This document shows, piece after piece, positions 1 to 60,830 of a DNA stretch of 64,000 bases. The notes below the pieces were generated by a model, which searched no databases, was not told where the DNA came from, and saw nothing but the letters and a program-made list of their open reading frames with translations. The translations under genes were made by a program, and so were the position numbers. The stretch is from the NCBI GenBank assembly GCA_009914755.4, contig CP068257.2, positions 14,336,001-14,400,000 on the forward strand, read 5' to 3'. Each line of letters starts with the position of its first letter. Position 1 is the stretch's first letter. The DNA is from the human T2T-CHM13v2.0 reference genome, Homo sapiens.

Positions 1-409
1 GAAAGGTGAATAGGAGTATGACTAGACAGAAGATAGTAGGGATGACAAGTTTTTTTTTGGGGGGCTCAGTCCAAGTTGGTCTGGTGTCTGGAATGAGACT
101 GGGGCCTAATAAAAAGGAGCGTCTATACAGGAGCTCAAATGGGCTGTACCTTGTAGCATTCTGAGGACAGGCCTGAATTCTGAGAAGGGCAAGTGGTAAA
201 AGTATTGTCCAGTCTCTTTTAATTGATGGCTGAGCATGGTGAGGTGTGTTTTAAAAAGACCATTAGTTTACTGAATACTAAGAACCTGAGAAACTACTTG
301 GGTGATTTGACTAATAAAGGCCGGTCTGCTATCGGACTGTATAGAGGTGGGAAGGCCAAACTGAGGAATTATGTCTGACAGAAGGGAAGAAATGACCGTG
401 GTGGCCTTC

Positions 410-646
410 TCAGACCCTGTGGGAAAGGCCTCTACCTATCCAGTGAAAGTGTCTACCTAGACCAAGAGGTATTTTAGTTTCCTGACTCAGGGCATGTTGA
501 GTAAAGCTAATTTGCCAGTCCTGGGCAGGGGCAAATCCCCGAGCTTGATGTGTAGGGAAGGGAGGGGGCCTGAATAATCCCTGAAGAGTAGTAGAATAGC
601 AGATAGAACACTGAGAAGTTATTTCCTTGAGGATAGATTTACACAA
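410..646 (-). pseudogene. Remnant of the integrase N-terminal/catalytic-core entry, part of ERV pol. Not an intact gene.
   Basis: The ORF translation …PAQDWQISFTQHALSQETKIPLGLG… matches the gammaretroviral IN motif (P)GxHWEIDFTE. Confidence 0.6.
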
Positions 647-1453
647 TGGAAAGGAAATGAGAGGTTATAAGAGGCGGGCTAGTGGCTTGTACTATAGCAT
701 AGCCTACCTTTGCTGGTGTGTGGCAATTAGGCCTGGTGGAACTGCCATCAATAAACCAAGTGTGATCAGGGTGAGGAACAGGAAAGAAGGAAATATGGGA
801 AAATGGGGGTGAATGTCAGATGTATCAGAGAGATACAGTCAGGAGGGTCAGGTGTGGTATCAGGAATAATGTGGGAGGCTGGATTGAAGTCTGGGCCAGG
901 AACAATGGTAATTGTGGGAGACTCAACAAAGAGTGAGTACAGCTGAAGGAGTCGGGGAGCAGAAAGTATATGTGTGAGGTGTGAGGAAGAAAACAGATTT
1001 TGGAAGTTATGAGAACTGTAGAGAGTGAGTTGAGCATAGTTTGTGATTTTGAGGGACTCTAAAAGTATTAGGGCAGCGGCGGCTGCCGCACGCAGACTTG
1101 AGGGCTAGGCTAAAACAGTAAGGTCAAGTTGTTTGGATAAAAAGGCTACAGGGCACGGTCCCAGTCCTTGTGTAAGAGTTCTGACTGCATAGCCCTGCAC
1201 TTCGGCTGTGGGTAATGAAAAGGGTTGGGATGAGTCAGGGAGAGCTGGGGTGGGGGCAGTCTCTAAAGCTGTCTTCAAGGAATGGAAAGAGAAGTGGGGA
1301 AAGGAATTAGGATCTATGGGGTCAGCTAGGTTTCCTTTTGTGAGTTTATATAATGGTTTTGTTAGGATGGCAAAACCAGATATCTAAAGTATCCAACCAC
1401 GCCTAGGAAGGAAAGGAGTTGTTGTTTTTTAGAAGGTGTTGGGGTTTGAGAGA

Positions 1454-2019
1454 TCAGTGGGACATGATCGGCAGGGAGAGCACGTGTGTTTTTATGAGAA
1501 TTATGCTGAGATAGGTAACAGATAAGGAAGAAATTTGGGCTTGACTGAAGTAATGGGAGCTGTCTGTGAAGCCTTGTGGCAGTACAGCCCAGGTAATTTG
1601 CTGAGCCTGATGGGTGTCAGGGTCAGTCCAAGTGAAAGCGAAGAGAGGCTGGGATGAAGGGTGCAAAGGAATAGTAAAGAAAGCATGTTTGAGATCCAGA
1701 ACAGAATAATGGGTTGTGGAGGGAGGTATTGAGGATAGGAGAGTATATGGGTTTGGCACCATTGGGTGGATAGGCAAAACAATTTGGTTGATAAGTTGCA
1801 GATCCTGAACTAACCTGTAAGCCTTGTCTGGATTTAGAACAGTAAAATAGGGGAATTGTAAGGGGAGTTTACAGGCTTTAAAAGGCCATGCTGTAGCAGG
1901 CGAGTGATAACAGTCTTTAATCCTTTTAAAGCATGGTGTGGGATGGGATATTGGTATTGAGTGGGGTAAGGGTGATTAGGTTTTAATGGGATGGTAAGGG
2001 GTGCATCATTTGTCACCAA
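1454..2019 (-). pseudogene. Remnant of the reverse transcriptase fingers/palm region of ERV pol. Frameshifted; YXDD box not intact.
   Basis: ORFs 1834..2019 (PLKPNHPYPTQYQYPIPHHALKGLKTVITRLLQHGLLKPVNSPYNSPILL) and 1454..1777 (VLDLKHAFFTIPLHPSSQPLFAFTW…QITWAVLPQGFTDSSHYFSQA) are classic gamma-like RT blocks. Confidence 0.8.
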
Positions 2020-2207
2020 GGAGGGAGTAGAGGTGTCCTATACTTATGGGTTAAGGTGGGGAGATAGAAGGGGATGATGTGAAGGAGGCTTTGAACTGGG
2101 GGAAAAGGCAGCAATGAGGTGTGGCTGTAGCCCAGGAATAGTCAGGGAAGCAGATAATTTAGTTGAAGTGTCTCGGCCTAATAAGGGAACTGGGCAGGTG
2201 GGGATAA

Positions 2208-2396
2208 TTAAAAGGAGTGCTTAAAAGAGTATTGTCTAAGTTGGCACCAAAGTTGGGGAGTTTTAAGAGGTTTAGAAGCCTGGCCGTCAATACCTACAAC
2301 AGTTATGGAGGCAAGGGAAACAGGCCCTTGAAAAGAAGGTAATGTGGAGTGGGTAGCCTCCGTATTGATTAAGAAGGGGACGGACTTACCTTCCAC
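2208..2396 (-). pseudogene. Remnant of the retroviral aspartic protease.
   Basis: ORF contains LINTEATHSTL, aligning to the LLDTGAxxSVL active-site loop with D->E/N degeneration. Confidence 0.6.
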
Positions 2397-2609
2397 TGTG
2401 AGAGTTACCTAGAGCATCTGTGATGGTCCTGTAGGCTTCTGAGGCAATCAGGCAGTGTCAGTCTTCAGCTGCTAAGCTGAGAAGATCAGGGAAGGAGTCA
2501 GTCAGAGAGCCTTGGGCCAGAGTTCCAGGGGCTCTGGAAGTGGCTGCCAGGTGAGTTGAACAGTCTGATTTTCAGTGGGGTCCTGCACAGATGGGACACA
2601 GCTTGGGAG

Positions 2610-2700
2610 GAATCCTGGGCTGTGGGCATTCCTTGGCCCAGTGGCCAGATTTCTGGCACTTGTAGCAAGCTCCTGGGGGAGGAGGTTCTGGAGGAACCCC
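2610..2700 (-). other. gag nucleocapsid CCHC zinc knuckle (CX2CX4HX4C) followed by a second Cys-His box. Coordinates are approximate.
   Basis: The reverse complement of ~2618-2700 reads CYKCQKSGHWAKECPQPRIPPKLCPICAGPHW. This lies in a different frame from the listed ORF, consistent with frameshifts. Confidence 0.65.
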
Positions 2701-3699
2701 TGGAAGCTGTGGTTCAGGCGTTTGGAGTTCTTGTGTGCTGGAGATGTGGCTGGGGTTTGTCTCACAGTGGAGGCAAGGAATTACAACTCAGAAATACATT
2801 GCTACTTGGCTGCCTCTACTCTATTATTGTACACCTTGAAGGGAGGTTAATTAACTCTTGTTGTGGGGTTTGAGGGCTGGAATTTAATTTTTGGAGTTTT
2901 ATTTAATGTCGGGAGCAGATTGGGTAATAAAATGTGTATTAAGAATAAGACGGCCTTTTGACCTTTTAGGGTCTAGGGCTGTAAAGTGTCTCAGGGTTGC
3001 TGCCAAACGAGTCATGAACTGGGCTGGATTTTTATATTTTATGAAAAAGAGCCTAAATGCTATCTGATTTGGGATAAAGAAAAAGGAGCATTAACCTTGA
3101 CTATGCCTTTAGCTCCAGCCACCTTCTTAAGAGGAAATTGCTGGGCAGGTCGGGGAGGGCTAGTCTCGGAACGAAACTGTAAGCCAGACCGGTGTGAGGA
3201 GGGGAGGTGATAAAAGGATTATAGGGTAGGGGAGCGGAGGCTGAGGAAGAATTGGGACCTAGCTCAGCCTGGCGAGGAGCAGCCTGGGGAGGAGGGGAGA
3301 GGTCAGATGGGTCTGTAGAAAAGGAAGACTGGAAAGAGGAAAGACTCAGCGACGCTTGGGGTTGGGACTGAGGGGACAGATGGGAGGGAAAGAAGGAAAA
3401 TTTGGACAAGTTGCATTGGGAACAGAGACTAGGGAGGGACCCATGTGTAAAAGAATGCCTGGACATCAGGCACCTCAGACCAGACCGTTTGCCTATTTTA
3501 TGACAAGAATTATTTAGATCTTATAGGATGGAAAAATCAAAAATGCCATTTTCTGGCTATTTGGAACCACTGTCGAGTTTGTACTGGGGTCAGGCAGCAT
3601 TGCAGAAGAAAATAAGGCGTTTAGGTTTTAGGTCAGGTGTGAGTTGAAGAGGTTTTAAGTCTTTGAGAACACAGGCTAAGGGAGAAGGAGGAATGGAGG

Positions 3700-3960
3700 G
3701 TGGAAGGTTGCCTATAGTGAAGAAGGCAAGTCCAGAGAAAAGAGAGGGTAGAGACATGGAGAGAAGGGGTGGGAGGTGCTTGCCCCCCAGGAAAGTGGAG
3801 AAGGGGTAGAGACATGGAGAGAAAGGGTTGAGGGGTTCTTGCACCCTAGAAAAGCGGTACTTGCCGCAAAGGGTGAAGGACCAAGGCAGGCGTCCCGGCG
3901 TGGTCAGACACCTTTGAAATGTGGGTGAATGATCAGGCAGGCATCCCTGCGTGATTAAAC
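3700..3960. repeat. Tandem sub-repeats in the ERV pre-gag leader: two ~55-bp units of the form ggtagagacatggagagaa(g/a)gggt…gg, then a duplicated caggcaggc(g/a)tccc(g/t)gcgtg motif. CpGs are retained.
   Basis: Direct repeat units visible at 3741-3795 and 3803-3855, and again at 3885-3950. Confidence 0.7.
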
Positions 3961-4294
3961 ACAAAGGAAAGACTGTCTTCCCGAGTCTGTGAATGGTGCT
4001 GGAGTTTTGGGTCCACAGATAAAACGCATCTCCTGTCTTTACGAGAAAAGGAAAGAAACTGAAATTAAGAGAAGGGAGAGATTGAAGTGTGGCGCCAAGA
4101 TTGAAAGGAGAAAGAGATTGAGGGATAGTGAGAGAGGATGGAGAAGAGAGTAAAAAGAGGCCACTTACCTGATTTAAAATTGGTGTGATGTTCCTTGGAC
4201 TGGTTGGTCTGAGGACCCGAGGTCATAGGTGGATCTTTCTCATGGAGCAAAGAGCAGGAGGACAGGGGATTGATCTCCCAAGGGAGGTCCCCCA

Positions 4295-4312
4295 ATCCGA
4301 GTGACAGCAGCA
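4295..4312 (-). other. Primer-binding site: an 18-mer complementary to the tRNA-His 3' end, degenerate (about 3 mismatches).
   Basis: Minus strand reads TGCTGCTGTCACTCGGAT against canonical TGGTGCCGTGACTCGGAT, immediately 3' of the LTR end (…cacacggacacgagtgaaa). Confidence 0.6.
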
Positions 4313-4314
4313 AA

Positions 4315-5171
4315 TTTCACTCGTGTCCGTGTGAAGAGACCACCAAGCAGGCTTTGTGTGAGCAACAAGGCTGTTTATTTCACCTGGGTGCAGACGGGCT
4401 GAGTCTGAAAAGAAAGTCAGCCAAGGGAGATAGGGATGGGGCCATTTAATAAGATTTGGGTAGGTAAAGGAAAATTACAGTCAAAGGAGGTTGTTCTCTG
4501 GGGGGCAGGGGTGGGGGTCACAGGGTGCTCAGTGGGGGAGATTTTTGAGCCAGGATGAGCCAGGAGAAGGAATTTCACAAGGTAATGTCATCAGTTAAGG
4601 CAAGGACTGGCCATTTTCACTTGTTTTGTGGTGGAATGTCATCACTTAAGGCAGGAACAGGCCATTTAAGTTTCACTTTTTTTTGTGATTCTTCAATTAC
4701 GTCAGGCCATTTGCATGTATACGTGCAGGTTACAGGGGATATGATGGCTTAGCTTGGGCTCAGAGGCCGGACACTTTTGTATAAAGCTTATTTTTCTGAG
4801 GAGTGGTGAAGATTGTAATGATGGTCCCTTCTTGTACTCTTCCCCAGTTTTGCATGACAATTGGCTAGCAAATTTGTCAATATGGTGCAATTAGTCTTGA
4901 TCCTCATGAACAAATAAATGAGAAATAAAAAAGAATATTGAAATATAAATCCATAGACCATGCAAAACTGAGAACTATGGCCCATCCAGTGAGAGACCTA
5001 GATGCTACAGGACAGATGACAGTAGCTACCTAGTTGAGGGAAACTTCTATTCTGTGGAAAGAAAGTAAGAGTAGCCTTTAGGTGCCCAGTGATATTAATC
5101 CTAATCTGCCAATTACCAGTGACATGACCTTGAGAAAGACCCCCAAGTTTTCTGGATCTTCATTACATAAA
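4315..5171 (-). mobile_element. LTR12-type (ERV9) 5' LTR. R-U5 sits next to the PBS, the TATA-like box at ~4445-4460 is mutated (tattaaa), and U3 contains tandem sub-repeats. The distal boundary is uncertain and could be as early as ~4800.
   Basis: The reverse complement of 4316-4560 closely matches the remembered LTR12 3' portion: …ccttctcctggctcatcctggctcaaaaa…cccccactgagcac…ctttgactgtaattttcctttacctacccaaatc(c)tat(a)aaa(c)ggcccc…ctcagcccg(c)ctgcacccaggtgaaataaacagcc…gctcacacaaagcctg(t)ttggtggtctcttcacacggac. The minus-strand copy begins TG right after an A17 run at 5172-5190. Confidence 0.7.
4555..4752. repeat. LTR12 U3 tandem sub-repeats: about 2.5 copies of a ~50-bp unit, atgtcatca(g/c)ttaaggca(a)gga…ggccatttt…
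   Basis: Direct repeats at 4588-4637 and 4638-4690 plus a partial third. Variable-number U3 sub-repeats are a hallmark of ERV9 LTRs (established knowledge). Confidence 0.7.
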
Positions 5172-11140: not shown

Positions 11141-11560
11141 TCATACATAATGTGATTAATATTAATATATAAAAAATCATATAACATATCATGATATATA
11201 TTAATATATTTTATTATATATTTATATATCATTATATATTACTATATAATAAATCATAGTATATGTAATAAAAAATTATATATTATGTATTATATAATAT
11301 AGTATATATTATAAATCATATAATATATGTAATTATACATATAGAGTATAGATGTTAATATATGATATATATACTGTATATAATTATATACATACTATGT
11401 ACATACTCTATATTATAATTATATATAGTATATATGTTTATATATGATATTATATCATAATATATACCAAATATGATACTACATAAATACTATACATTAT
11501 TGTAGTATAGAGTATATATAATATATATATCATAATATATACTATATGATTTATTATAAG
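11141..11560. repeat. ~420 bp TA-rich complex low-complexity block, (TA)n/(TATAA)n-like, rich in short palindromes.
   Basis: Almost pure A/T, with recurring tatata, atataat and tatgat motifs. Confidence 0.9.
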
Positions 11561-52995: not shown

Positions 52996-55902
52996 ATCCT
53001 ATTGCCCCCTTTTGTCACAAAGTTGACTTTCTTTGTGATCTGAGACTGTATGACATAAAACAACAGATTGACCCTTTAGTTACAAAAAGTTAAGTAATTC
53101 ATTATTCATTGTCTTGGAAAGAGTGAAGATCATTTGAATCTGCAAGGATGGTATGAAATTGCTTGGTTTATTAATGTAAATTGAATTGAGATTTAATTTT
53201 GGTTGTTTCCTTGAGAAAGCAGAAAAATGGTTTTCCTACTAAATGAGTATTTCCTACTAAGTGAGGGAAATTTAGATTGGATCACGTGTGCCTAACATGG
53301 GCTGTTAAATGAGGAACACCTAGAGCTTTGAGAAATATACTGTGAAATGTTAGGATTTTTTTTTTTTTTTTTGAAATTTCACTTGACCGAGATATGGGGC
53401 CTGGGGAGAGTATAAGGAAAGGGCTGTGTCCTCTCCTAGAATGAATTAACTAGGAGTGGGTCACGGAGCTGTTTCTGGACATAGTGCAGTCCATGTTATT
53501 GTCTGATATTCAGATTATTCACAGTAATTTTTTTTAATTAATAACCTTCTTAACTATATATAATTTTTTATCCTTTCCTTCCTATACACACAACACCTAA
53601 TATGGTGTTCCACTTTTCCTTTTCCCCATATAATTGGACAAAACCACGTTGCCTCTGATTCTTCAATATTGGGTGAAATTCAGTCCTCCAATTTTACTCC
53701 AGGTTTGGAAGGACGAGAGACAGGAATCCAGTTTCAAGGGACTAAATGCAGGGCCGACCAAAGCCTCGGAGGCCCTCCCTCTATTAAGTATCTTCTCTGT
53801 TACCCAGTTCTCCAGCAGTTAACTGGTTAACTTGTTAAGATGTAAATCTAAAAGAATCCCTGGGAAAATGGAACAGTGGGAATCTAGGGTTCTAAAATTT
53901 GTATTAGCAAAGGGTCTAAAACTCCTTTGTTTACATTGTCTTAATTATTAAAGAATCCAATAGCATTAAACAGCTTGAGAGAATGTTTGCCCAGGGGAAG
54001 TCTATATTTTTGGCAAGCAATAAAATGTTGAATATAAATGAAAGCTATCCTGAATCCTGGCATATGTGTCTCTACTATGTTATTTGCTTCCAGATTTTTT
54101 CCAAATGGATACTTTTAAACATATTTATCAGAATACTAAACTTATGCATCTCATTTTTTAAATATGTCTTAAAATTTTCCCCTTAGTTGCTAGGGTCTTC
54201 ATAATTATTATTAAATATAATCAATTTTCCAAGAAACACTCTCCAGTTTTGTACTGCCTAAACAACCTTGCATTGTGATCTTTTCTCCTTTTGAATGTAT
54301 TTTCTTGGACTACATTTCCAGAAATAGAATTACTGAATAAATGGTTTGGAAATATTTACAGCTCATAATATGAAATGCCAAAGTTTTTCAAAAAAGAGTT
54401 TAAAACAATTTCTATCTCATAATATAGTATGTATATCAGTTTTGGTTATACTCCACTATTATGCATTACATTTAATTATACTTTCTTTAGTCTTTGTATT
54501 TTACTGTCCCACTTCCAGACTCAAAGAAGATCATAGCCTCCTGGAGAACTAGGAGAGTGTATTTATTACTTTTGTATTTATTTACTTCTCTATAACATTA
54601 GAACAAGGACTAACACATACTAAGTAAACATTAAATGTTTGTTGCATTGATTTGAATTAATCACGGGAATTCTTTTTGCAGTTACAGTAACTGCCAAATT
54701 ACTTCATGTTTTGGTGAATTACTTTATTATGATTTTAGCTTTTTTTCATTAACTGAGACTCGTGTTCCTCTTTTTAGTGCTTTTTTGTTTTTAATGAAAT
54801 GCTTCATGATTTTCTGTGTCATCCTTAAAAGAGGACATGTTTATTTTCTCTGGATTGTGCCAATTTTAAGATATTTTCTGCCAAAGCATGCATCATTTAA
54901 TTTAATTTTACTCTTTCAGTAAGCAATTATATGACTGAGTTTACAGTTAGTATTTGAGATACAATTGAGGTTAAACATTTTTAATGTGTGTTTATTAAAA
55001 TGATATTCTTTATTTAGTGAGTTGTTTGCTCTTGAGTTTGCCCATTTGAATCTGGAGTTTTATTTGTAAAATAATTATAATTAAATTTTAAACTTTTCCT
55101 ATTACATTTTGCTCTAGATGTTTTTTAGCTTTTTTCAATTTTTGTTTATGGCTAAAATTCAGAAATTTCAAAATTTTATAGTCTCATTTGTTTTGAGGGG
55201 AGCAGATACCTCTTTCTCTTAGATAGTTCAAAGGTTATTGACTACTACTTAGCACTGCCACAATAGGCTAAATGTCCAGTTTTATTCTATTTGAGGCATT
55301 CTGGATATTATTAATGCTTTGTATCATGATATATTGCACTTTTAGAGTGTATTTAGGGATGGGATATTATTAGTTTGAGTAGTCCGCTTAGATTTTTTTT
55401 AAACTGGGAAAACAATTATCTATTCATATATTAATTAAAAACATTTTATTTTGATGTATGGGTCAGTTTTTAGTTTTTTCTACTTTTCAATATGATGTAA
55501 TATGTTGATTTTTGTACCATACTCTTTCACCTATTGATTGTTCAGCATATATTTTAATATTTGCTAAGCCTAGTTTCTCCCTTGTTTGAGACTATTCTGA
55601 AATATTTTTTATTAATTAATTATCCAAATAAAATTTGTCACCTGAAGGCTATAGTCCAAAAAAGAGCTTATAATTTTATTTGGGATTTTATTAAACGTTC
55701 ATATTACTTTGGGAAGGTCCAAAATTATATATGACTGTTTTTCCATCCAGGAGCATGATTATGTGTTTCTACTTATTAGAGAATAAATTTCTTTCCAATA
55801 AAGCTTTATAATTTTTGTAAAGTATGTCCTATATCTCTCATCTATGTTTTCAAGTTAAGATTGCCACTTTAATTACTATTGTGATGAGATACTTTTTAAA
55901 TT

Positions 55903-56503: not shown

Positions 56504-58568
56504 CTGAGTGTTATTATTATTTTTTTAGTGTTATATTGTTATCCTGTCTCATTCATATATTTGATTACATGTAATAGCTCGATTTCTTGAAAATGATATG
56601 CATCTTCTTTTCCTGTAGGTATAAAATTTCCTTTCAGTATATGTTAACAGTTGCTTCAGGGTAGACACTATCATGACAAGTTATCATGAGAATGTCCTTC
56701 CATTGAACAATTGTGGGATTTTTGAGCTAAATTTGCTAGGTCATAATAGATTAGCCTATCATTCTATTCAATCTCATATACCATTTTTTAAAGATCTGCA
56801 ATGAAGCAGAAGGCAAAGTAGCTACAATGAAGTTAGAGGTTTGCTCAAATATTTCATGGCCTTAAGCCAAAATGCTTATGGGAACTCTGTCTGCTGCGGC
56901 AATGCCTACTGACTTCTTGCATTTCCTGAAGGGTGGTTAGAAAGGGATGCCCATCATTTCTTGTGGGTTGGTCAGATTTCCCAACACTTCCTACCTGATG
57001 TAGGTGTCTGGGTATGGTTGGGGTTTGGAGGAATGTTCTCATGATCTAACAGTCAGACTTTCACTTATTTCCCTTTGTGCCATCCAGCTTCTTGTCTTTT
57101 TTTTATCAGCGGTTTCTCTATGCTATGGCACAGCTTATCTAGAACTCTCAAAGCTGAAAAAATTTTGTTGCACAGACTAAAACAGGAAGCTGGGGTTCGA
57201 ATACTTTTGTTTCAGACTTTTTAAAGCAATCTTCCTGTTTTATGCCTTCACCTCCCCACATCCCTACTCCCTGTCCTCTGGAGATAGTGGTTACGTTCGA
57301 TTCCTGAGCCTTTCTGGAGTTTTATGGCACAAATGGACTTATTTATCCTGGCTTCTTTCCAAGAATTCACTTACCTATCTGTTACTATTATTCTATCCAT
57401 AAGTCAGCTTTCAAAATTTTATTGGTCTCATTAGAGTGCTTTTGTTTTCTCATCTTATTTGTCCTTGTAGGCTAATGATTTTATTTTTTTAAACTATCTG
57501 AGTGTCATTTTAGTCAGGTTTGGGGAGGGAGCAGAGGTGCACATGTCTGCCATGTTTTTTAGGAAGTCTCTGTCATGATATATTTTTATACTGTCTGCAG
57601 TGGACAGAGCCAATGAACTCCCTGGCATCAGTTTTTCTGTACTCATTGTTAACAAGACATCAGATTACCAACTATGTGATTTTGGAGGAGTAAGCTGTTA
57701 TTAACCCAAACTAATCATCATCATTGTAGGCGAAGAAGGTGAAATGTTTTCCAGCTCTTGGCTTTATTTTTCCTTGTGGAGGGACCTCAGGTGGAATAAT
57801 GCTCCCCACTTCTCACTCAGTCCTCCTTAAGGAAAAGGAATGACATCTGATTATGAGGTAGAAAAATAAAGTAAGTGTTCTCCAGTCAGTCCCATTTCTT
57901 CTTATTAGGTTTTCTCCCCTCTGCAAGGCAGCTTGGAATAAACTCAGTGGTACAGGCTTTGTCTCGATGAGGGTCTCCAGACATCTATAGTTGAAAAGTG
58001 AGCAAATTCATTTGGCCACGAGCTAAACCATGTTTCCTATCCAGCCAGTCAGTAAAAAGGCTTACATCTCCATAGGTCCATCCCCTGTGTTTTATTTTTC
58101 ACTTGTTTCTAAACTTGGGCAGGAAAGAAAAAGCTATTATATATCTACTTTCATCTCCACCCTTGAAACAAATAAACAAAACCCAGACCAGCAAGTTAAT
58201 CCTATTCCTCATGCAGCAATATTTGGTTTAACAGTGGACATGGAGTCTGGGTCTAAGCCATTAGTGCTTAACATTCCTCTGACAATGGCGATCGGTTCAG
58301 GGTTGGGCAGCATCTATGTTGCTTCTGCAAAGTAAAGACCATGACTTTCCTTTGATTTTTTAAACATCAAAACATGTTTATTCTTTCTCTGGATGGTTTT
58401 GTGAGAAGCCATTATACTGGGAAAAACTGCAGCAATTTTGCACCCATGACAAACCCAGCAAGCACATGAAGGACAAATTCTCCTTGGAGGAAGAGCAGAG
58501 GATGGAGACAGAACCCGGATAGAATTCCATGTGAAGTCTACACTACTCCTAGACTTTTCATTTGTGTG

Positions 58569-58946
58569 GTGTATTAGTCTGTTCTATGCTGTTAATAAAG
58601 ACACATCCAAGACTGGGCAGTTTATAACGGAAAGAGGTTTAATTAACTCACAGCTCTGCAGGGCTGGGGCAGCCTCAGGAAACTTACAATCATGGTGGAA
58701 AGGGAAGCAAACATGTCCTTCTTCACATGGTGGCAGCAAGGAGAAGAATGAGGGCCCAGCAAAGGGGGAAGCCCTGTATAAAACCATCATCTCTCATGAG
58801 AACTAATTCACTATCACAAGAACAAGACAGGGGAAACCACCCCCATGATTCAATTTTCTCTACCTGGTCCCTCCCGCAACATGTGGGGATTATGAGAACT
58901 ACAATTCAAGATGAGATTTGGGTGGGGACACAGCCAAACAATATCA
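58569..58946 (-). mobile_element. THE1-like MaLR solo LTR, ~380 bp.
   Basis: The plus strand is the reverse complement of the THE1 consensus as I remember it. It starts tgtattagtctgttct(a)tgctg(t)taataaagaca(c)a(t)cc(a)agactggg… and ends …ggattatgagaactacaattcaagatgagatttgggtggggacacagccaaac(a)atatca, the reverse complement of TGATATGGTTTGGCTGTGTCCCCACCCAAATCTCATCTTGAATTGTA…. Confidence 0.8.
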
Positions 58947-59045
58947 TGTGGGTTAACACATTTCTTTCTATGTTTAAACTCACTTGAAGTGGGTTTCTTA
59001 CCATTAAGAGCATCTAATCACTGCATTATTGAGTTTGCTTTTCTA

Positions 59046-59290
59046 GGATTTCTGTAAAATTGTCACATTTTAATTACAAATGAGTTTCCAAACAGTGTTT
59101 CTCAGAACATAAGCGTTATGCCTAGTCTGCTCAAGCAAAATCTCTGCTCTTGGGTTCAGATTTACTTTCACAAGTCAAAATTGGTTTCATCCTGGATTAA
59201 GTTCACCTAGCCTTAAGACAGGATACATGGTAGGCCACATGGCATGAATGGCAACAACGAATCAGAGGAATTAGGAGACTTACTTCATTG
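59046..59290 (+). repeat. Arm A of a long imperfect inverted repeat; partner at 59620-59867.
   Basis: See arm B. Sequence ggatttctgtaaaattgtcacattttaattacaaatgagtttccaaacagtgtttctcagaacataagcgttatgcctagtctgctcaagcaaaatctctgctcttgggttcag…ggcaacaacgaatcagaggaattaggagacttacttcattg. Confidence 0.85.
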
Positions 59291-59619
59291 CTAAAATGGA
59301 CATAGTCTCAGGAGATGAGACAAGATGAGCATGAGCCACCTCAGTTCATGGAAGCTGCATGCTCTGGTGGCCCTGTCAGCTTTTACACCTTGTAAGATTC
59401 ATAACATTCTCCTCATATTCACATGACTGGCCCTCATTCTCCAGTACAGTAGAATTTCACTGATACTTGTTACTCAGTAAACAATTTCAGCAATGAGGAT
59501 CAAATGTATGGTCTGGAATGTAGTAACAACAGATGAATTCTCTATAATCTAGGGTCTAGTCTGCTCCTGTGACTCCTTTAATTAATATGCAAGAAAGATT
59601 TTAAGAATACCAAATCCTA

Positions 59620-59867
59620 TCAATGAAGTAAGTCTCTTAATTCCTCTGATTTGTTGTTGCCATTCATGCAATGTGGCCTATCATGTATCCTGTCTTAAAG
59701 CTAAGTAAACTTAGTCCAGGCTGAAACCTATTTTGACTTGTAAAAGTCAATCTGAACTCAAGAGCAGAGACTCTGTTTGAGCAGACTAGGCATGGCACTA
59801 ATGTTCTGGGAAACACTGATCGGAAACTCAACTTGTAAGTAAAAATGTAACAAGTCTACAAAAATCC
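59620..59867 (-). repeat. Arm B of the long inverted repeat. Its reverse complement aligns to 59046-59290 over ~245 bp. By eye, identity is roughly 85% in the central ~190 bp and lower at the distal end.
   Basis: The reverse complement of 59620-59867 reads ggatttttgtagacttgttacatttttacttacaagttgagtttccgatcagtgtttcccagaacattagtgccatgcctagtctgctcaaacagagtctctgctcttgagttcag…ggcaacaacaaatcagaggaattaagagacttacttcattga. It is collinear with arm A. Confidence 0.85.
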
Positions 59868-60229
59868 TAGAAAAGCTAACCCAAATCCTCAGCTATCTCT
59901 GAGGCTAACGGTTAAATTATGGACCTACTTTTAACTCTATTCTAAATTAGTATCCTGTGAATATGGACAACAAGAACAATAATATATGTCAGTTATTTAA
60001 GTGACACCAATTAAAGTGCTTTGCATATTATTGTGTAATAAATAATTTGGCTGGCCTTTTTTCCCAGTTCCCGGGAGTTATCTTTTAAAGCCTTAGAATT
60101 CCCTGAGTGACAGGAGAGTTTTTGCTATTCATAGTATGTTCTGATAGGTTATGCCAATGAGGCGACTCATGGTGAGCTCATAGATAGTTTATGCTAACAA
60201 GATGACTCAGGATGGTGTTGACCAATCCA

Positions 60230-60830
60230 GAGAGACTAACCATGTTTTTAGAGGGTTGGAACTTCGAACCATGTGATATTAGCCTGACCTCCAGGGAGGG
60301 GAGTAGGAACTGGAGATCAAGTTCAATCACATGGCCAGTAATTCAATATATCATGCCCACAAAATAGAACTCCAATAAAAACTTAGACACTGAAGCTCAT
60401 ATGAGTTTCCTTGGGTAACAATGTGTATTGTTACACAACAATGATTGAAAGGTGATGTGTCCTGACTCTGCAGGGAGAGAGGACATCAGAAGCTACACAT
60501 TTGGGACCTTCTCAGGCTTCACCCTATGCACCTCTTTTTGCTGATCCTGATTTGTATTATTTGTGCTATAATAACACTGTAATTATATGTATAGGACTTT
60601 CCTGAATTCTCTGTCACTGTCAGTCTATTAAATGATTGAGCATGAAGAGAGAGTAGGAACCCCTGAGTATTTAGCTTGTTGGTCAGAAGTGCTGGTGGCC
60701 TTGGAACTCATAAGCTTGTGGCTAGTTTCTGAGGTGAGTGAGAGGTCTTGTGAAGGACTGTGCCCTCAGCCTGTGAAGTCTGCCTAACTCTGGCTAGTCC
60801 ATCGCAAGTCACTGCACACGTATTAATTCA
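60230..60830 (+). mobile_element. Probable ancient LTR-class interspersed repeat (ERVL/MaLR-like). Family not determined.
   Basis: Phrases typical of old mammalian LTR consensi: …caatcacatggccagtaattcaatatatcatgcccacaaaatagaactccaataaaaac… and …ggtcagaagtgctggtggccttggaactcataagcttgtggctagtttctgaggtgagtgagaggtcttgtgaaggactgtgccctcagcctgtgaagtctg…. Recognition is by resemblance only. Confidence 0.35.

What the first reader, a model, noticed from the sequence alone, without database searches (positions are those of the whole stretch)
59046..59867. ~250-bp inverted repeat pair with ~330-bp loop: long-hairpin or foldback structure
Arms 59046-59290 and 59620-59867 are reverse complements over about 245 bp. 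I checked collinearity by hand and estimate identity at roughly 85% in the core. The ~330-bp spacer between them is not itself palindromic. Nothing comparable occurs elsewhere in the window, and the arms are not Alu, L1 or MaLR sequence. Three explanations are possible. It could be a non-autonomous DNA transposon or foldback element with unusually long TIRs. It could be an ancient local inverted duplication. If transcribed, it could be a long hairpin RNA that yields endo-siRNA or miRNA-like small RNAs, or acts as an A-to-I editing substrate. Long inverted repeats of this kind also promote replication-dependent instability.
Basis: seen in the sequence. Interest (0 to 1): 0.6.

Follow-up and report, generated by a model that had tools for sequence, protein, structure and literature searches.

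The report
Old local inverted duplication, long hairpin
A 260-base stretch of primate non-coding DNA was copied backwards and inserted about 325 bases downstream roughly 30-45 million years ago, leaving a large but ordinary inverted repeat with no sign of being a transposon or a functional RNA gene.

Summary
The inverted repeat is real. The arms are 59029-59293 and 59618-59884, 87% identical with two 1-nt indels, and the spacer is 324 nt. As RNA it folds at -442 (+ strand) or -459 (- strand) kcal/mol, z about -30.

It does not look like a transposon. No target-site duplication flanks the whole structure, the ends fit no transposon superfamily I recall, and there are no coding remnants. An exact 9-bp direct repeat, CCAAATCCT, brackets the right arm only (59610-59618 and 59881-59889; P about 0.003-0.005). 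This points to the right arm (59619-59880) being a reverse-complement copy of 59033-59292, inserted with a 9-bp target duplication and 1-4 nt of junction microhomology.

The arm differences look neutral: 21 transitions, 11 transversions, and no bias that would preserve base pairing. They amount to about 5.6% per arm at non-CpG sites, which matches AluS elements in the same window.

There is no Rfam match. An inverted AluY pair in the same window forms a stronger hairpin, so the structure is not unique there.

With a 324-nt spacer and 13% divergence, cruciform-driven instability is unlikely.

I could not test genome copy number, orthologues or expression, because no eukaryotic database was reachable.

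Verdict: an ordinary, probably neutral, ancient local inverted duplication. Interest is low.

The parts
59029..59293 (+). Left arm of the inverted repeat, inferred to be the ancestral source segment (core source 59033-59292).
   Evidence: Alignment to the reverse complement of 59618-59884 gives 87% identity. No flanking direct repeat above background: best exact match 5 bp, approximate score 0.
59294..59617 (.). Spacer (loop) of 324 nt. It is not palindromic and is inferred to be ancestral sequence lying between the source and the insertion point.
   Evidence: No internal inverted repeat. No similarity elsewhere in the window. It folds alone at only -79.7 kcal/mol. No CpG remains.
59618..59884 (-). 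Right arm of the inverted repeat, the reverse complement of the left arm.
   Evidence: blastn E = 1.5e-90.
59619..59880 (-). Inferred inserted segment of 262 nt: a reverse-complement copy of 59033-59292, lying between the two copies of CCAAATCCT.
   Evidence: Its position relative to the 9-bp direct repeats. Arm homology ends within 1 nt (inner end) and 4 nt (outer end) of these boundaries.
59610..59618 (+). Direct repeat copy 1, CCAAATCCT: the target-site duplication or return-point duplication just upstream of the inserted arm.
   Evidence: Exact 9/9 match to 59881-59889. P = 0.0048 with wide slack and 0.0027 with +/-6 nt slack, against random 267-nt segments of the window.
59881..59889 (+). 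Direct repeat copy 2, CCAAATCCT. Its first 4 nt (CCAA) overlap the outer end of arm homology, which counts as 3-4 nt of junction microhomology.
   Evidence: The mismatch at 59032/59881 is a transition.

Best explanation
This is a relic of a single local rearrangement, not a mobile element and not a gene.

[quoted passage not shown] The event duplicated 9 bp of the target (CCAAATCCT) and used 1 nt (T) of microhomology at the entry junction and 3-4 nt (CCAA) at the exit junction.

The likely route is a templated inverted insertion. Either a 3' end from a stalled fork or a break folded back (or switched to the complementary strand) at the inner end of the left arm, copied about 260 nt, and rejoined or returned 9 nt upstream of where it left. 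Or the copy filled a break with 9-nt staggered ends.

The two arms have since drifted apart neutrally to 87% identity. That dates the event to about the time of AluS amplification, roughly 30-45 million years ago, in an anthropoid or catarrhine ancestor.

Today the DNA would give a roughly 265-bp imperfect double-stranded RNA hairpin if it happens to lie in a transcript. In that case it would behave like the ubiquitous inverted Alu pairs, for example as an ADAR editing substrate. Nothing indicates a selected function.

What is shown: the anatomy, the 9-bp repeat, the substitution spectrum and the relative age. What is inferred: which arm is the copy, the pathway, the single-copy status and the neutrality.
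For: - Arms and spacer are as described.
- An exact 9-bp direct repeat flanks the right arm only (P = 0.0048; P = 0.0027). The left arm and the whole structure have only background-level flanking repeats (5 bp and 4 bp; score 0).
- Arm homology stops 1 nt and 4 nt beyond the segment bounded by the repeats, which amounts to short junction microhomology.
- The differences look neutral: 21 transitions to 11 transversions, and only 3 of 32 at CpG sites. K2P distance is 0.133. G:U-compatible changes number 9 on the + transcript and 12 on the - transcript, with 11 compatible with neither.
- Per-arm non-CpG divergence is about 5.6%.
- No other copy of the arm, loop or flanks exists in the 64 kb.
- There is no Pfam family at or above its curated cut-off in any frame. 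No homologue of any ORF of 28 aa or more was found in 5.8 billion protein clusters.
- No relative turned up in the metagenome, GTDB or IMG/VR scans.
- Local template switching that creates reverse-complement copies and new hairpins is an established mutational process in primates (PMC5453318, PMC10710096).
- Inverted duplicates are abundant in the human genome: 4.3 million were catalogued (PMC5398296).
Against: - Genome-wide copy number could not be measured, so an uncatalogued or unrecognised repeat family is not excluded.
- No outgroup or orthologous sequence was available to show the empty site or to prove which arm is the copy.
- The 9-bp repeat is significant only at about the 0.3-0.5% level, and 4 of its 9 bases overlap arm homology.
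- In the four-point template-switch model the event would be of type 3-2-4-1, with the return point upstream of the departure point. That class was not observed among short human-chimp template switches (PMC5453318). A simple single-fork switch is therefore not a perfect fit, and the pathway remains open.
- The copied tract of about 260 nt and the 326-nt distance are much larger than typical short template-switch events.
- Gene conversion between the arms would make the date too young.
Confidence: 0.65

Rival explanations
1. It is a non-autonomous DNA transposon or foldback element about 856 bp long with TIRs of about 265 bp. Alternatively, it is two copies of one unrecognised interspersed repeat that inserted head-to-head.
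For: A long perfect-register inverted repeat around an unrelated core is the anatomy of long-TIR elements. Arm divergence dates it near the end of DNA-transposon activity in primates, about 37-40 million years ago (Pace and Feschotte 2007, from memory). Copy number could not be tested, and one 64-kb window would only be expected to hold a second copy of a very abundant family. A 9-bp duplication is the TSD length of Mutator-like elements.
Against: There is no TSD around the whole structure: the best exact match is 4 bp and the approximate score is 0. The 9-bp repeat brackets one arm, not the element. The termini (TTGAGTTTGC... / ...GCTAACCCAA) lack the CAG/TAG (hAT), CAGT plus TA (Tc1/mariner) and CCC...GGG plus TTAA (piggyBac) signatures, judged by inspection against superfamily features recalled from memory. 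MER6, a human MITE of matching length (865 bp), has only 24-bp TIRs and a TA TSD (PMC6887750). All long-TIR (MuDR-type) families I know of in human are far older than 13% arm divergence allows (from memory). There are no transposase remnants. For the two-insertions version, the left arm has no TSD and neither arm has a poly(A) tail, TIRs or TG...CA ends.
Confidence: 0.2
2. Whatever its origin, the locus is maintained as a functional long-hairpin RNA gene. It could be a source of endo-siRNA or miRNA-like RNAs, or a selected dsRNA or ADAR-binding element.
For: The predicted hairpins are very stable on both strands: -442 / -459 kcal/mol, with uninterrupted helices of up to 49 bp on the + strand and 32 bp on the - strand. 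A fraction of intergenic inverted duplicates in human is expressed and structurally stable (7.8% expressed; PMC5398296). Template-switch events are documented sources of new miRNA hairpins (PMC10710096).
Against: No Rfam family matches: only two hits at E = 4-9, far below gathering scores and outside or at the edge of the arms. The arm differences show no strand-specific bias towards G:U-compatible changes, and 11 of 32 break pairing on both strands. The transition-to-transversion ratio and the divergence equal those of neutral Alus of the same age. Inverted Alu pairs in the same window form even stronger hairpins without being genes. Expression is unknown.
Confidence: 0.05
3. The right arm is an L1-mediated retrocopy of a local antisense transcript that happened to land next to its source.
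For: The insertion is flanked by a 9-bp direct repeat, which is within the usual 7-20 bp range of L1 target-site duplications (range from memory).
Against: There is no poly(A) or poly(T) tract at either end of 59619-59880, and no TT/AAAA-like endonuclease site at the repeat (sequence). Landing 326 nt from the source would be a remarkable coincidence for a process acting in trans.
Confidence: 0.03

Closest known systems
Template-switch mutations and templated inverted insertions (four-point model of Loytynoja and Goldman 2017, PMC5453318; de novo hairpins and miRNAs from template switching, PMC10710096; 'serial replication slippage in trans', FoSTeS/MMBIR; pol-theta snap-back insertions, the last from memory)
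   Same: [quoted passage not shown] This creates a new inverted repeat or hairpin with a spacer of unchanged ancestral sequence and short microhomology at the junctions.
   Different: The copied tract (about 260 nt) and the distance (about 326 nt) are roughly ten times larger than typical short template switches. The 9-bp duplication implies a return upstream of the departure point (order 3-2-4-1), a class not observed among short human-chimp events. A break-repair route with staggered ends fits at least as well.
Intergenic 'inverted duplicates' catalogued in vertebrate genomes (Chen et al. 2017, PMC5398296)
   Same: It falls inside their definition (arms 10-10,000 nt, spacer 0-1,000 nt). It belongs to their longest class (arms over 36 nt, the top quintile), as far as I could tell in non-repetitive sequence, and is predicted to be structurally stable.
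   Different: Its arms are much longer than the typical member: the 80th percentile of arm length is 36 nt. Whether it is in their expressed subset is unknown.
Inverted Alu pairs (IR-Alus)
   Same: They match in arm length (about 280 nt), identity (about 85-90%) and spacer of a few hundred nt. They would have the same expected behaviour as dsRNA if transcribed, and the same low fragility at this spacing. An example lies in this window at 45678-46707.
   Different: IR-Alus arise from two independent retrotranspositions of a million-copy family. Here the arms match no repeat in the window, and one arm appears to be a direct local copy of the other.
Long-TIR DNA transposons, MITEs and foldback elements
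   Same: Two long inverted arms around an unrelated core, with a total length in the MITE range.
   Different: There is no TSD around the whole unit, no superfamily-typical termini and no evidence of multiple copies. The flanking direct repeat surrounds one arm only.

Membership tests
DNA transposon with terminal inverted repeats (MITE / foldback / MULE) | Target-site duplication directly flanking the outer ends of both TIRs | tested here: not met
   The best exact direct repeat around 59029/59884 is 4 bp, and the approximate score is 0, at or below the median of random segments.
DNA transposon with terminal inverted repeats (MITE / foldback / MULE) | Superfamily-typical terminal nucleotides (hAT YARNG; Tc1/mariner CAGT plus TA; piggyBac CCC..GGG plus TTAA) | tested here: not met
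   The ends read TTGAGTTTGC... and ...GCTAACCCAA, and the flanks are ...GCATTA and ATCCTC.... Signatures were compared from memory.
DNA transposon with terminal inverted repeats (MITE / foldback / MULE) | Multiple dispersed copies with the same ends in the genome | not testable with these tools
   No eukaryotic genome or Dfam was available. There is no second copy in the 64-kb window. Prokaryote-centred collections gave 0 true hits, but there was no positive control for human content.
DNA transposon with terminal inverted repeats (MITE / foldback / MULE) | Transposase coding remnant (autonomous members only) | tested here: not met
   Six-frame Pfam scan: nothing at or above the curated cut-offs. 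Search of 5.8 billion protein clusters: no hit. Non-autonomous elements do not need this feature.
Templated inverted duplication / template-switch product | One arm is a reverse-complement copy of adjacent sequence, with the intervening spacer unaltered | tested here: met
   Arms are 87% identical in reverse complement and the spacer is unrelated.
Templated inverted duplication / template-switch product | Microhomology and/or short duplication at the junctions of the inserted copy only | tested here: met
   The 9-bp CCAAATCCT repeat brackets 59619-59880. There is 1 nt of homology at the entry junction and 3-4 nt at the exit junction.
Templated inverted duplication / template-switch product | Switch-point order seen in short template switches (return point not upstream of the departure point) | tested here: not met
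   The inferred order is 3-2-4-1. Types with point 4 before point 1 were not observed by Loytynoja and Goldman.
Templated inverted duplication / template-switch product | Empty site (ancestral state without the copy) in an outgroup species | not testable with these tools
   No primate or mammalian genomes were accessible.
miRNA / structured RNA gene | Match to a curated RNA family | tested here: not met
   Rfam 15 at gathering thresholds gives only U6 at 54788-54889. At E <= 10 over 58800-60100 there are two chance-level hits.
miRNA / structured RNA gene | Substitutions biased to preserve pairing | tested here: not met
   9 (+ strand) and 12 (- strand) G:U-compatible changes, with 11 that disrupt pairing on both strands. 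This compares only the two arms of one genome. No cross-species covariation was possible.
miRNA / structured RNA gene | Transcription and processing into small RNAs | not testable with these tools
   No expression data were available.
Inverted pair of independently inserted retroelements (IR-Alu type) | Each arm is a member of a dispersed family with its own TSD and poly(A) tail or LTR ends | tested here: not met
   The arms match none of the 14 Alus, the L1 fragment, the LTRs or the HERV in the window, nor a MIR consensus. There is no poly(A) tail and no TG..CA ends, and the left arm has no TSD.

The most novel reading that the evidence does not exclude
A single templated inversion event about 30-45 million years ago created, in one step, a 265-bp hairpin from unique DNA that is transcribed in some tissue. 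It would then act as a non-Alu long dsRNA, as a source of endo-siRNAs or as an ADAR1/MDA5-relevant self-dsRNA. That would make it a large-scale counterpart of the template-switch-born miRNA hairpins. It would also be an example of the '4 before 1' switch class that short-event surveys did not find.
Probability: 0.06. Interest if true: 0.5.

Novelty: new member of a known kind. Interest (0 to 1): 0.18.

Why it matters
It matters little in itself. Inverted duplicates number in the millions in the human genome, and inverted Alu pairs of the same size and strength are common, one of them in this same window.

The locus is a clean, datable example of a large (about 260 nt) templated inverted insertion, with a preserved 9-bp target duplication and junction microhomology. 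It could serve as a textbook case of how long hairpins arise from unique DNA in one step.

If it lies in a transcript, it would be a non-Alu dsRNA worth a look in editing and innate-immunity datasets.

Tried and rejected
1. MIR SINE. By eye, parts of the arm resembled the MIR core. The arms scored no better than shuffles. Rejected.

2. Searching for relatives or orthologues outside the window.
- Exact 20-24-mers conserved between the arms gave 0 hits in metagenome, GTDB genome and IMG/VR contigs.
None of these extends beyond 31 nt of similarity, so they are chance matches.
- These collections are prokaryote- and virus-centred, and I ran no positive control for human content. The negative result is therefore weak.

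3. Concatenated stop-to-stop ORFs (577 aa, all frames) against 5.8 billion protein clusters. The aim was to fish for spurious ORFs on human or primate contigs and for any TE protein. No hit at E <= 0.01.

4. Pfam on all six frames. The only hits are sub-threshold: TTC3_DZIP3_dom (E = 0.007) and PHD (E = 0.07), on the motif LLIPLI(R/C)CCHSC(H/N)VAYHVSCL. The motif is present in both arms because of the duplication. I treated these as chance, given the lack of any homologue.

5. Rfam, at gathering thresholds and at E <= 10. Nothing relevant.

6. A 20-nt direct repeat at 58534 and 59852 (85% identical). Judged to be a chance match.

7. L1-mediated retrocopy. Rejected for lack of an A-tail and of an endonuclease site.

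8. Identifying the host gene, in order to fetch orthologous introns. No convincing exon was found among 106 ORFs of 70 aa or more, so this route was abandoned.

9. Pace and Feschotte 2007 is not held in the library. It is cited from memory and through PMC6887750.

Full report
**Observation**

The inverted repeat is real and slightly larger than reported.
- The repeat finder gives a 213-nt core (59081-59293 / 59618-59830, 89% complementary) plus a 43-nt outer block.
- A gapped alignment joins these into arms 59029-59293 and 59618-59884, with 233 matches, 32 mismatches and two 1-nt indels (87.3%). The spacer is 324 nt.
- Within the window the match has E = 1.5e-90.
- As RNA, the 856-nt unit folds into one long hairpin on either strand. 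MFE is -441.9 kcal/mol (+ strand) and -459.0 (- strand), against about -206 and -211 for dinucleotide shuffles, so z = -32 and -28.
- The stem alone contributes -364 / -377 kcal/mol, with 237-244 of 265 positions paired. The loop alone gives -80.
- The spacer has no palindrome of its own.

One side claim fails. Comparable inverted repeats do occur in the window, made by inverted Alu pairs. The AluY pair 45678-45959 / 46427-46707 has arms of about 280 nt at about 89% complementarity with a 467-nt spacer. It folds at -673 kcal/mol, which is stronger than the finding.

**Context**

The window is primate DNA.
- It holds 14 Alus and an L1 ORF2 fragment at 34329-36121.
- It holds a retroviral gag-pol on the minus strand at 1 to about 4500 (RVT_1, E = 8.6e-11).
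- It holds a U6-like copy at 54788-54889.
- Just left of the repeat lies a solo LTR (58570-58946, TG...CA ends) with a perfect 5-bp TSD, TGTGG. From my recollection of the consensus it is a THE1/MST-type MaLR.

Neither the arms, the loop nor the roughly 80-nt and 200-nt flanks resemble anything else in the 64 kb.

**Is it a transposon?**

A TIR element should carry a target-site duplication just outside both arms. The best exact direct repeat there is 4 bp, and an approximate-match score is 0, at or below the median for random segments.

The termini (TTGAGTTTGC... / ...GCTAACCCAA) show none of the hAT, Tc1/mariner or piggyBac signatures. This rests on inspection against signatures recalled from memory.

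MER6, a human MITE of matching length (865 bp), has 24-bp TIRs and a TA TSD (PMC6887750).

All six reading frames give nothing at or above Pfam's curated cut-offs. A concatenate of every stop-to-stop ORF of 28 aa or more found no homologue among 5.8 billion protein clusters.

**What the sequence shows instead**

An exact 9-bp direct repeat, CCAAATCCT, lies at 59610-59618 and 59881-59889. It brackets the right arm alone. Random 267-nt segments of the window reach this level in 0.48% of trials with generous slack and 0.27% with +/-6 nt slack. The left arm has only background-level flanking repeats.

Arm homology ends 1 nt (T at 59618) and 4 nt (CCAA at 59881-59884, against the reverse complement of TTGA at 59029-59032) beyond the segment bounded by the repeats. 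The one mismatch there is a transition. This amounts to short junction microhomology.

The simplest reading is that 59619-59880 is a reverse-complement copy of 59033-59292. It was inserted into ...GAATACCAAATCCT|CAGCTATC... with a 9-bp duplication of the target.

**Mechanism**

A reverse-complement copy of adjacent sequence with microhomology is the signature of template switching or templated repair (PMC5453318, PMC10710096).

In the four-point notation the event would be 3-2-4-1. Types in which point 4 precedes point 1 were not seen among short human-chimp events, because the return would require reopening the new duplex. In addition, the 260-nt tract and 326-nt distance are about ten times the usual scale.

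I therefore leave two routes open.
- Fold-back, snap-back or inter-strand copying from a 3' end, followed by microhomology-mediated rejoining.
- A break with 9-nt staggered ends that was filled in.

An L1-mediated retrocopy is unlikely. There is no A-tail and no endonuclease-type site.

**Age and selection**

The 32 differences are 21 transitions and 11 transversions, and only 3 fall at CpG sites. K2P distance is 0.133.

Per-arm non-CpG divergence is about 5.6%. So the duplication is about as old as AluS elements, roughly 30-45 million years by the conventional Alu chronology (also from memory). Gene conversion between the arms would bias this estimate young.

Changes compatible with G:U pairing are equally frequent for the two possible transcripts (9 and 12), and 11 changes break pairing on both. 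There is no sign of selection to keep an RNA helix.

Rfam has no match at the locus.

**Consequences**

In double-stranded DNA, IR-driven recombination drops about 40-fold when the spacer grows from 12 to 20 bp, and it falls exponentially with divergence. Widely spaced, diverged repeats matter only within long single-stranded regions (PMC10164571). With a 324-nt spacer and 87% identity, this repeat is not expected to be a cruciform hotspot.

If it lies within a transcript, it would be a long imperfect dsRNA like the inverted Alu pairs. Inverted duplicates are catalogued in the millions in human, and 7.8% of the intergenic ones are expressed. The 80th percentile of arm length is 36 nt, so this one is in the long tail but of a known kind (PMC5398296).

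**Limits**

No tool here reaches eukaryotic genomes or Dfam.
- Scans of metagenome, GTDB and IMG/VR contigs with arm 17- to 24-mers returned nothing, or only chance seeds of 31 nt or less.
- I ran no positive control for human content in those collections.
- Copy number, orthologues, the empty site and expression therefore remain untested. That is why confidence in the duplication model is about 0.65, with about 0.2 left for an unrecognised repeat family.

**Verdict**

The structure is an ordinary, probably neutral, ancient local inverted duplication, a new member of a known kind, and of low interest.

Noticed in passing
window 45678-46707: An inverted AluY pair (45678-45959 on the minus strand, 46427-46707 on the plus strand) with arms of about 280 nt, about 89% complementarity and a 467-nt spacer. 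RNA fold of 45660-46725 gives -673 kcal/mol, a stronger hairpin than the finding. Further inverted Alu pairs lie at 14052-14358/16290-16595 and 43461-43695/45659-45831.
   Followed up: partly
window 58565-58951: A solo LTR at 58570-58946 (TG...CA ends, reverse orientation) with a perfect 5-bp target-site duplication, TGTGG, at 58565-58569 and 58947-58951. By my recollection of the consensus it is a THE1/MST-type MaLR. It lies 82 nt left of the inverted repeat.
   Followed up: partly
window 1-4500: Endogenous retrovirus gag-pol on the minus strand. There is a CCHC zinc-knuckle ORF at 2575-2787 and a reverse-transcriptase ORF at 1457-1975 (Pfam RVT_1, E = 8.6e-11). This accounts for the strong GC skew (+0.36 to +0.42) and higher GC content of the first 4 kb.
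   Followed up: partly
window 54788-54889 (-): A full-length U6 snRNA-like sequence (Rfam RF00026, 50.5 bits against a gathering score of 44). It is probably one of the many U6 retropseudogenes.
   Followed up: no
window 59206-59307 (-) and 59586-59705 (+): Both arms encode, in one frame, ...NEVSLLIPLI(R/C)CCHSC(H/N)VAYHVSCLKA..., which gives sub-threshold Pfam hits to TTC3_DZIP3_dom (E = 0.007) and PHD (E = 0.07). No homologue was found in the 5.8-billion-cluster protein search, so I treated this as chance.
   Followed up: partly
window 34329-36121 (-): An L1 ORF2 C-terminal fragment, with open stretches of 393, 134 and 76 aa.
   Followed up: no
window 11157-11558 and 28500-28705: Long degenerate AT/TA-rich microsatellite blocks. 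The second contains a 34-nt unit repeated 3.5 times at 97% identity. AT-rich tracts of this kind can themselves form hairpins.
   Followed up: no
window 60050-60830: The sequence to the right of the repeat resembles an old MLT1-type MaLR LTR, from memory of the consensus only. This was not verified.
   Followed up: no
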